DNA of 13,904 nucleotides from an uncultured archaeon. Its GTDB lineage: Archaea; Asgardarchaeota; Heimdallarchaeia; Heimdallarchaeales; Heimdallarchaeaceae. The position numbers and the translations under genes were made by a program. The notes under the pieces are model-generated. The model was given only the letters and a program-made list of their open reading frames with translations. It searched no databases and had not been told where the DNA came from. Where the stretch lies: the NCBI GenBank assembly GCA_964534625.1, contig CAZHRF010000063.1, positions 1-13,904 on the forward strand, given 5' to 3'. Shown piece by piece: positions 4,870-5,085 of the stretch; position 1 is the first letter of the stretch; each line of letters begins with the position of its first letter.

Positions 4870-5085
4870 ACTACGTATCTAAGCATAGTACCTGTACTTT
4901 CTATGACCCGGAGACTCTCCGGTACTCGATAAAAAAAACAGGTCTCTTGAACTGTAGGCTAATCCTTATGGGAATTCCCCGAATATAAAACTGAGGCTTT
5001 CGTTCAAGAATGCTAATACTACTAGTACTCGTTAAAACGCACCTCATACGAGAGGCGAGAGGAAACGGGGAAAGTATACGTAATT
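4870..5085 (+). ncRNA. Candidate IS110 bridge-type guide RNA
   Basis: Non-coding and directly upstream of the IS110 ORF. Domain 1: ACCTGT/ACAGGT (4890-4943) enclosing CCGGAG-ACT-CTCCGG. Domain 2: TCTTGAAC/GTTCAAGA (4945-5009) enclosing GGGAATTCCC. Domain 3: ATACT/AGTAT with CTCGTT/AACGGG and CCTC/GAGG (5016-5077). Each has internal loops. Confidence 0.6.

What the first reader, a model, noticed from the sequence alone, without database searches (positions are those of the whole stretch)
4870..5085. Candidate bridge RNA with three internal-loop domains
Seen: three consecutive stem / internal loop / hairpin domains (4890-4943, 4945-5009, 5016-5077) and a possible closing helix TACGTAT (4872-4878) / ATACGTA (5076-5082). 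Known: the IS621 bridge RNA is encoded upstream of the recombinase and has a 5' hairpin plus two guide loops (target and donor). Inference: this is an archaeal bridge RNA, possibly with an extra domain. I could not assign the guide segments to the ends with confidence.
Basis: partly seen in the sequence, partly recalled or inferred. Interest (0 to 1): 0.72.

Follow-up and report, generated by a model that had tools for sequence, protein, structure and literature searches.

The report
Pseudoknotted archaeal bridge RNA variant
This is a real guide RNA of an RNA-guided jumping gene in an Asgard archaeon; its third stem-loop is not an extra DNA-reading guide but appears to fold back onto the donor-reading loop, in place of a piece of the element's own DNA that simpler relatives read there, an arrangement I did not find described for bridge RNAs.

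Summary
Confirmed and extended. 4882-5069 (+) is a conserved structured RNA upstream of an IS110 recombinase (27 of 44 pairs change on both sides across 23 homologues). Domain 1 is the target loop: its 3' strand (4930-4937) equals the 8 bases left of the element (154/160 bases; 135/136 in held-out relatives). Domain 2 is the donor loop: its 3' strand (4983-4990) equals the element's last 8 bases (145/152). This guide order is IS1111-type although the RNA lies upstream. Domain 3 tracks no DNA junction; it pseudoknots with domain 2's 5' strand. Sister elements lack domain 3, and there that strand matches, in the same sense, a left-end site beyond a DNA palindrome (82/96 vs 60); with domain 3 the match is lost (81/126 vs 79). 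This suggests a folded-back donor that domain 3 mimics (inferred, about 45%). Element: 4817-6964, followed by a 70-bp mini-element with at least 34 near-complete genomic copies. No transcript data. The scan had no look-alike on other DNA; an earlier agent on this window noted the extra stem-loop.

The parts
4809..4816 (+). Left target (host flank) 8-mer read by domain 1
   Evidence: identical to 4930-4937; covariation
4817..6964 (+). Whole IS110-family element (2148 bp)
   Evidence: ends from guide matches, homologue alignments and mini-element boundaries
4825..4837 (.). Left-end palindrome, kept as a 5-8 bp stem with changing sequence in 39 elements
4841..4846 (+). Left-end site 2; mirror position of the junction (core + first donor bases) across the palindrome; matched by the domain 2 5' strand in two-domain relatives, only 3/6 here
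4853..4860 (.). Left subterminal inverted repeat (C followed by 7 T), complement of 6949-6956
   Evidence: sequence; distance to palindrome axis constant within about 1 base
4882..4886 (+). 5' strand of closing helix P1 (pairs with 5010-5014), enclosing domains 1 and 2
4890..4943 (+). Domain 1 = target-binding loop
4895..4903 (+). Probable right-target guide (5' strand of domain 1, complementary to top strand)
   Evidence: clear in held-out clade (53/72 vs 43.5), weak in this clade; 10 of 18 mini-element right flanks fit its prediction vs 7.9% background
4930..4937 (+). Left-target guide (3' strand of domain 1; would pair with bottom strand)
   Evidence: 154/160 and 135/136 matches
4945..5009 (+). 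Domain 2 = donor-binding loop
4963..4968 (+). 5' strand of domain 2: second donor-guide position, here paired with domain 3 (pseudoknot)
4983..4990 (+). Left-donor guide (3' strand of domain 2)
   Evidence: 145/152 matches to right-end 8-mer; 79 vs 68.5 held out
5028..5069 (+). Domain 3; its 3' loop strand 5059-5063 pairs with 4963-4967; absent from the two-domain sister clade
5111..6808 (+). IS110 recombinase gene; start probably CTG 5111 behind a Shine-Dalgarno-like motif (TTG 5162 gives 548 aa); N-terminal helical add-on domain, RuvC-like DEDD (D97, E144, D181, D184 from 5162), Tnp domain S395
6948..6956 (.). Right subterminal inverted repeat (A-run then G)
   Evidence: conserved before the right-end 8-mer in homologues
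6957..6964 (+). Left donor 8-mer = right end of the element
   Evidence: identical to 4983-4990
6965..7034 (+). 70-bp non-autonomous mini-element in tandem (left end through the T-run + about 14 bp + right end)
   Evidence: 43 hits, 34 near-complete, 5 tandem pairs in the genome

Best explanation
A bridge RNA that programs the adjacent IS110 recombinase. Step 1 (shown by covariation, about 95%): domain 1 selects the A-rich insertion site; its 3' strand reads the 8 bases left of the crossover and its 5' strand probably reads the bases to the right. Step 2 (shown by covariation, about 95%): domain 2 recognises the element's own right end through its 3' strand. Both long guides sit on the 3' side of their loops, the IS1111 order, which is IS621 geometry with the element inserted the other way round. 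Step 3 (shown by covariation, about 80%): domain 3 is not a DNA guide; it pairs with the 5' strand of domain 2 in a 4-7 bp pseudoknot. [quoted passage not shown] In the three-domain clade domain 3 supplies an RNA mimic of that DNA arm, as a replacement or a lock, and a helical add-on on the protein came with it. The RNP would then exchange strands at 4816/4817 and 6964/6965 and also mobilise the 70-bp mini-elements, which keep exactly the cis parts this model needs.
For: Structure. Target guide: 154/160 vs null 113.6, p<=1e-5; held out 135/136 vs 105.9; 16 concordant double changes vs 3 single-sided in 8 disjoint pairs. Donor guide: 145/152 vs 112.3; 13 concordant vs 6 single-sided. Cross-controls null. 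Pseudoknot: 24/25 Watson-Crick at the variable position with T-A and C-G forms; 7 bp and 5 bp in distant held-out L098 and L029; also seen in L141-L143. Switch: domain 2 5' strand vs DNA mirror site 82/96 (null 59.7) without domain 3, 81/126 (null 78.7, p 0.27) with it, and 103/126 (null 90.0) vs the domain 3 loop. Mirror geometry holds while the palindrome axis moves by 8 units (r 0.91). No RNA-internal partner found in the two-domain clade. Single-stranded circles and donor-donor recombination are reported for IS621 (preprint 10.64898/2026.08.31.748434).
Against: No transcript, protein binding or circle junction was observed. No canonical right-donor guide was found. The right-target guide is weak in this clade (best single registers p 0.003-0.01 uncorrected). 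The same-sense match was noticed after looking at the data, and closest-relative pairs give only 3 concordant changes against 8 single-sided ones. Permutation p-values ignore kinship. Domain 3 and the N-terminal domain separate on a single branch, so their co-occurrence is one event. The first three bases of the pseudoknot strand are conserved also where domain 3 is absent. The reconstructed junction has no strongly favoured fold-back on the bottom strand by energy alone.
Confidence: 0.8

Rival explanations
1. Bridge RNA as above, but domain 3 is only a protein-binding scaffold for the N-terminal add-on and the pseudoknot is structural; the left-end match in relatives reflects something other than a folded donor (for example double-stranded DNA bent at the palindrome, or pairing with the RNA's own 5' end).
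For: Domain 3 and the add-on co-occur; add-on resembles Rho-N/SAP/LEM folds, Z about 5; site 2 lies about where a junction promoter would start transcription.
Against: Does not explain why the DNA match disappears exactly where domain 3 appears or why site 2 stays opposite the junction as the palindrome changes length. Same-sense copies cannot pair with each other.
Confidence: 0.35
2. Domain 3 is a third DNA-reading guide loop (for example the right-donor guide moved to a separate hairpin).
For: Its 5' loop strand is highly variable; its 3' strand is complementary to the first 3-4 bases of site 2 on the top strand.
Against: No covariation of either strand with left- or right-junction sequences; 3' strand vs left-end window 99 vs null 98; elements with identical domain 3 loops have different donor ends.
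Confidence: 0.08
3. The 45-bp repeats at 4813-4858 and 6961-7005 are att-like ends or a REP-like target into which the element inserted.
For: 38/46 identity; many copies in the genome.
Against: The hairpin and T-run are inside the left end of all 39 homologues, which lack a second copy on the right; the target guide matches the 8 bases left of it; the repeat ends with the element's own right end, so it is a mini-element.
Confidence: 0.04
4. A host small RNA (three-hairpin H/ACA or C/D guide) or an mRNA leader unrelated to recombination.
Against: No Rfam family at gathering or useful E-value; found only beside this transposase; loops track each element's own junctions.
Confidence: 0.02

Closest known systems
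IS621 / ISCro4 bridge RNA (Durrant 2024, PMC11208160; PDB 8wt6, 9t56)
   Same: RNA in the long left end upstream of a DEDD + serine recombinase; first loop reads the target, second the donor; 8-9 base left guides pairing with the bottom strand.
   Different: Left guides are on the 3' loop strands (5' in IS621); no right-donor guide complementary to the top strand; extra pseudoknotted third domain; protein 548-580 aa with an N-terminal helical add-on, 21-22% identical; A-rich guides.
IS1111-family seekRNAs (Siddiquee 2024, PMC11187229)
   Same: Top-strand match 5' of bottom-strand match; subterminal inverted repeats.
   Different: RNA is upstream, not downstream, of the gene; the left repeat is 36 bases inside the end; a separate donor loop with a clear 8-base guide.
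ISPpu9 modules (PMC12288879)
   Same: An IS110 transposase mobilising a non-autonomous module that sits in tandem with the element or alone.
   Different: The passenger here is a 70-bp fusion of the two ends without an RNA gene.
Integron attC sites (own knowledge, not tested)
   Same: Recombination substrate proposed to be one folded DNA strand.
   Different: Tyrosine recombinase and structure-only recognition; here an RNA would read both arms. Analogy only.

Membership tests
IS110-family bridge/seek RNA (broad sense) | Encoded in the long non-coding end of an element with a DEDD RuvC-like + Tnp-serine recombinase | tested here: met
IS110-family bridge/seek RNA (broad sense) | Covarying secondary structure with internal loops | tested here: met
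IS110-family bridge/seek RNA (broad sense) | A loop whose sequence tracks the target | tested here: met
IS110-family bridge/seek RNA (broad sense) | A loop whose sequence tracks the donor (element end) | tested here: met
IS110-family bridge/seek RNA (broad sense) | Target loop reads both DNA strands | tested here: inconclusive
   met in two-domain relatives, weak in this clade; supported by mini-element flanks
IS110-family bridge/seek RNA (broad sense) | RNA is transcribed, binds the recombinase and is needed for movement | not testable with these tools
   no RNA holder listed
IS621-type bridge RNA | Left guide 5' of right guide in each loop | tested here: not met
   left guides on 3' strands vs PMC11208160, PMC11187229
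IS621-type bridge RNA | Right donor guide complementary to top strand of the left end next to the core | tested here: not met
   (56 vs 54.1)
IS621-type bridge RNA | Two-loop RNA with a 5' stem-loop | tested here: inconclusive
   third domain present; the palindrome at 4825-4837 may be DNA or RNA structure; 5' end unknown
IS621-type bridge RNA | Core dinucleotide shared by both junctions | tested here: inconclusive
   both 8-mers usually end in two A, but several junctions differ at positions 7-8
IS1111 group | Top-strand match 5' of bottom-strand match | tested here: met
IS1111 group | Subterminal inverted repeats of 7-17 bp | tested here: inconclusive
   8-bp homopolymer-like repeat, asymmetrically placed
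IS1111 group | Guide RNA downstream of the gene | tested here: not met
IS1111 group | Transposase in the IS1111 clade | not tested
   no named IS1111 references in hand; plasmid hits are generic IS110, 25-28%
Archaeal H/ACA or C/D sRNA | Match to an Rfam family; host locus independent of a transposon | tested here: not met

The most novel reading that the evidence does not exclude
An Asgard lineage of bridge recombinases reads its donor as one folded DNA strand, with both guides of the donor loop pairing with the same strand on either side of a hairpin, and one branch evolved a third RNA domain that mimics the second DNA arm and occupies that guide in cis, leaving a single 8-base donor guide or acting as a switch.
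Probability: 0.4. Interest if true: 0.9.

Novelty: new variant of a known kind. Interest (0 to 1): 0.74.

Why it matters
Bridge RNAs are a new genome-editing platform known mechanistically from two close bacterial relatives. This clade gives mapped, naturally reprogrammed guides in archaea and combines features thought to separate IS110 from IS1111 (upstream RNA, IS1111 guide order). If the folded-donor reading holds, it bears directly on the open question of whether IS110 intermediates are single-stranded, and it shows an RNA domain evolving as a mimic of its own DNA substrate. The 70-bp mini-element defines a minimal cis donor. I found no description of a pseudoknotted or same-strand donor loop in the papers searched; the library is incomplete and 86 bridge RNA models in preprint 10.64898/2026.10.21.760802 could not be inspected.

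Tried and rejected
Rfam: two chance-level hits. Expression: no RNA holder listed. DNA contigs of the probable source samples confirm the assembly and show no circle junction; the one joint seen is the mini-element; contigs drop rare forms, so this is no evidence either way. Single-protein scan of genome contigs found nothing; the alignment scan did. The RNA model found no further copy in this genome or in 82 other genomes of the class with strict filters. Canonical right-donor guide not found in any RNA column. Domain 3 as a junction guide rejected. My first reading of the 70-bp repeat as a REP-like target was dropped once homologues showed it inside the left end. The T-run as a TATA-like box (21-27 bases before P1) was considered; the inverted-repeat reading fits better but both are untested. 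N-terminal domain: no Pfam or PDB sequence match, weak Atlas lead (0.75). One search had off-by-one anchors for the second guide; one search corrects them. No DNA was available for P0089.

Full report
Context. The window is contig C63 of a 3.37-Mb genome that shares a GTDB class with Ca. Hodarchaeota YT5_056 and a phylum with Promethearchaeota BC1 (locus identity checked), so it is an Asgard archaeon. The ORF at 5162-6808 has PF01548 and PF02371 and invariant DEDD and serine motifs. It folds like IS621/ISCro4 (Foldseek E 2e-13, 22% identity). It is the only close copy in the genome. About 90 relatives of 540-620 aa exist at 35-64% identity.

The observation. The region folds into the three domains described (z -2.85). 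The upstream region is 58-71% conserved in homologues. On 23 aligned copies the named structure has 91.7% of cells paired and 27 of 44 pairs with two-sided changes; 0 of 500 shuffles reach this and slid controls give 33-47%. An invariant U-G pair fixes the + strand. The conserved one is 4882-4886/5010-5014 and closes domains 1 and 2; domain 3 (5028-5069) lies outside it.

The ends. Homologues share a left end of palindrome, short C-rich site and T-run, and a right end of A-run, G and a variable 8-mer. The repeat at 6965-7034 is these two ends fused. It has 43 hits, 34 near-complete copies and 5 tandem pairs in the genome, and an 870-bp gene-less derivative lies on contig C2. The element is therefore 4817-6964 followed by a mini-element, not an insertion between att-like repeats.

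The guides. The 3' loop strand of domain 1 equals the 8 bases left of the element: 154/160 over 20 elements, 16 perfect, null 113.6 +- 4.1 with the same best-of-two register rule. The 3' strand of domain 2 equals the last 8 bases of the element: 145/152, 16 of 19 perfect, null 112.3. Swapped controls are null. Seventeen more distant elements not used for the model give 135/136 for domain 1 and 79 vs 68.5 for domain 2, and late additions L141-L144 and L137 largely agree. Disjoint pairs of relatives show 16 and 13 concordant double changes, so kinship does not explain the match. The 5' strand of domain 1 is complementary to the right flank in the held-out set (53/72 vs 43.5; positions 9-12 alone 24/36 vs 15.9) and weakly so in this clade. 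For this element it predicts the right flanks of 10 of 18 mini-elements against 7.9% background. In IS621 the bottom-strand guide is 5' in each loop (PMC11208160); the reverse order is the IS1111 pattern (PMC11187229), here found with an upstream RNA.

The third domain. Neither strand of domain 3 tracks a junction. Its 3' loop strand is complementary to the 5' strand of domain 2: three invariant pairs, a fourth that is Watson-Crick in 24 of 25 (15 T-A, 9 C-G) and a fifth in 17 of 25. Distant elements extend this to 7 bp (L098, with a G-C fourth pair) and 5 bp (L029). A sister clade of about 470-aa recombinases has domains 1 and 2 only, the gene following directly. All three-domain elements with an intact 5' gene end carry an N-terminal helical domain that the sister clade lacks; the split is one branch. 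That domain resembles Rho-N/SAP/LEM folds at Z about 5, a weak match.

The second donor guide. No RNA segment is complementary to the first bases of the left end. Instead, in the two-domain clade the 5' strand of domain 2 is identical to a 6-base site 25-30 bases inside the left end (87/96 vs 73.6; antisense null). That site sits at the mirror image of junction positions about -1 to +5 across the palindrome, and the T-run mirrors the right-end A-run, while the palindrome axis shifts between elements (r 0.91). With the site fixed by this mirror rule, the match is 82/96 vs 59.7 without domain 3 and 81/126 vs 78.7 with it; in the latter the strand follows domain 3 (103/126 vs 90.0). No complementary partner inside the two-domain RNAs was found. 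This was noticed after looking at the data, and close-relative pairs give 3 concordant against 8 single-sided changes, so it is weaker than the main guides.

Mechanism. Shown by covariation: target and donor selection by domains 1 and 2, and the domain 2-3 pairing. Inferred: a donor strand folded on its inverted repeats and palindrome would present the right-end 8-mer and site 2 on opposite sides of a bubble, in the positions that the two strands occupy in IS621, so one loop could read both; domain 3 mimics the second arm. Single-stranded circles and donor-donor recombination reported for IS621 (preprint 10.64898/2026.08.31.748434) make this plausible and would account for the tandem mini-elements; 13 of 33 mini-element left flanks are donor-like. 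Folding energy alone does not favour the fold-back, so protein help would be needed.

Verdict. A real IS110-family bridge RNA in the broad sense, not an IS621-type or an IS1111 member; a new variant with a pseudoknotted third domain. Nothing here shows expression or activity. Interest 0.74.

Noticed in passing
L012 (G000:C2 about 14985-14085, minus strand): About 870-bp gene-less derivative keeping the left end, the start of domain 1 and the right end of this element family.
   Followed up: partly
window 4938 and 4817; homologues: The RNA base after the target guide usually equals the first base of the element (19/21, 17/17, 3/3; C, A or T), a possible handshake-like contact with the product junction; this copy is an exception.
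   Followed up: partly
window 5099-5113: Shine-Dalgarno-like motif before an in-frame CTG at 5111; homologue lengths suggest the gene starts there rather than at TTG 5162.
   Followed up: partly
window 6947-6964 joined to 4817: The right-end A-run and donor 8-mer look like BRE + TATA and would start a transcript near 4840 on a circle, but many homologues have donor 8-mers unlike TATA.
   Followed up: partly
window 3125-3244 and 7216-7335: A second dispersed repeat family of about 110 bp with many genomic copies at 70-80% identity.
   Followed up: no
window 1-1442 (minus strand): Two-ORF remnant with Mutator/MULE transposase similarity.
   Followed up: no
L094 domain 2: A 6-base tandem duplication of the pseudoknot strand.
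   Followed up: no
L030, L095: Deep-branching members of the long-protein clade whose upstream regions do not match the RNA model; L030 has the N-terminal domain.
   Followed up: no
L143 and L144; L024 and L025; L023 and L026: Same or near-identical element at two sites, fixing the right end; the L144 site has a donor-like left flank.
   Followed up: partly
L093: A 60%-identical element on a 4-kb contig labelled Spirochaetaceae nests among the Asgard-type elements; misbinning or transfer, not tested.
   Followed up: no
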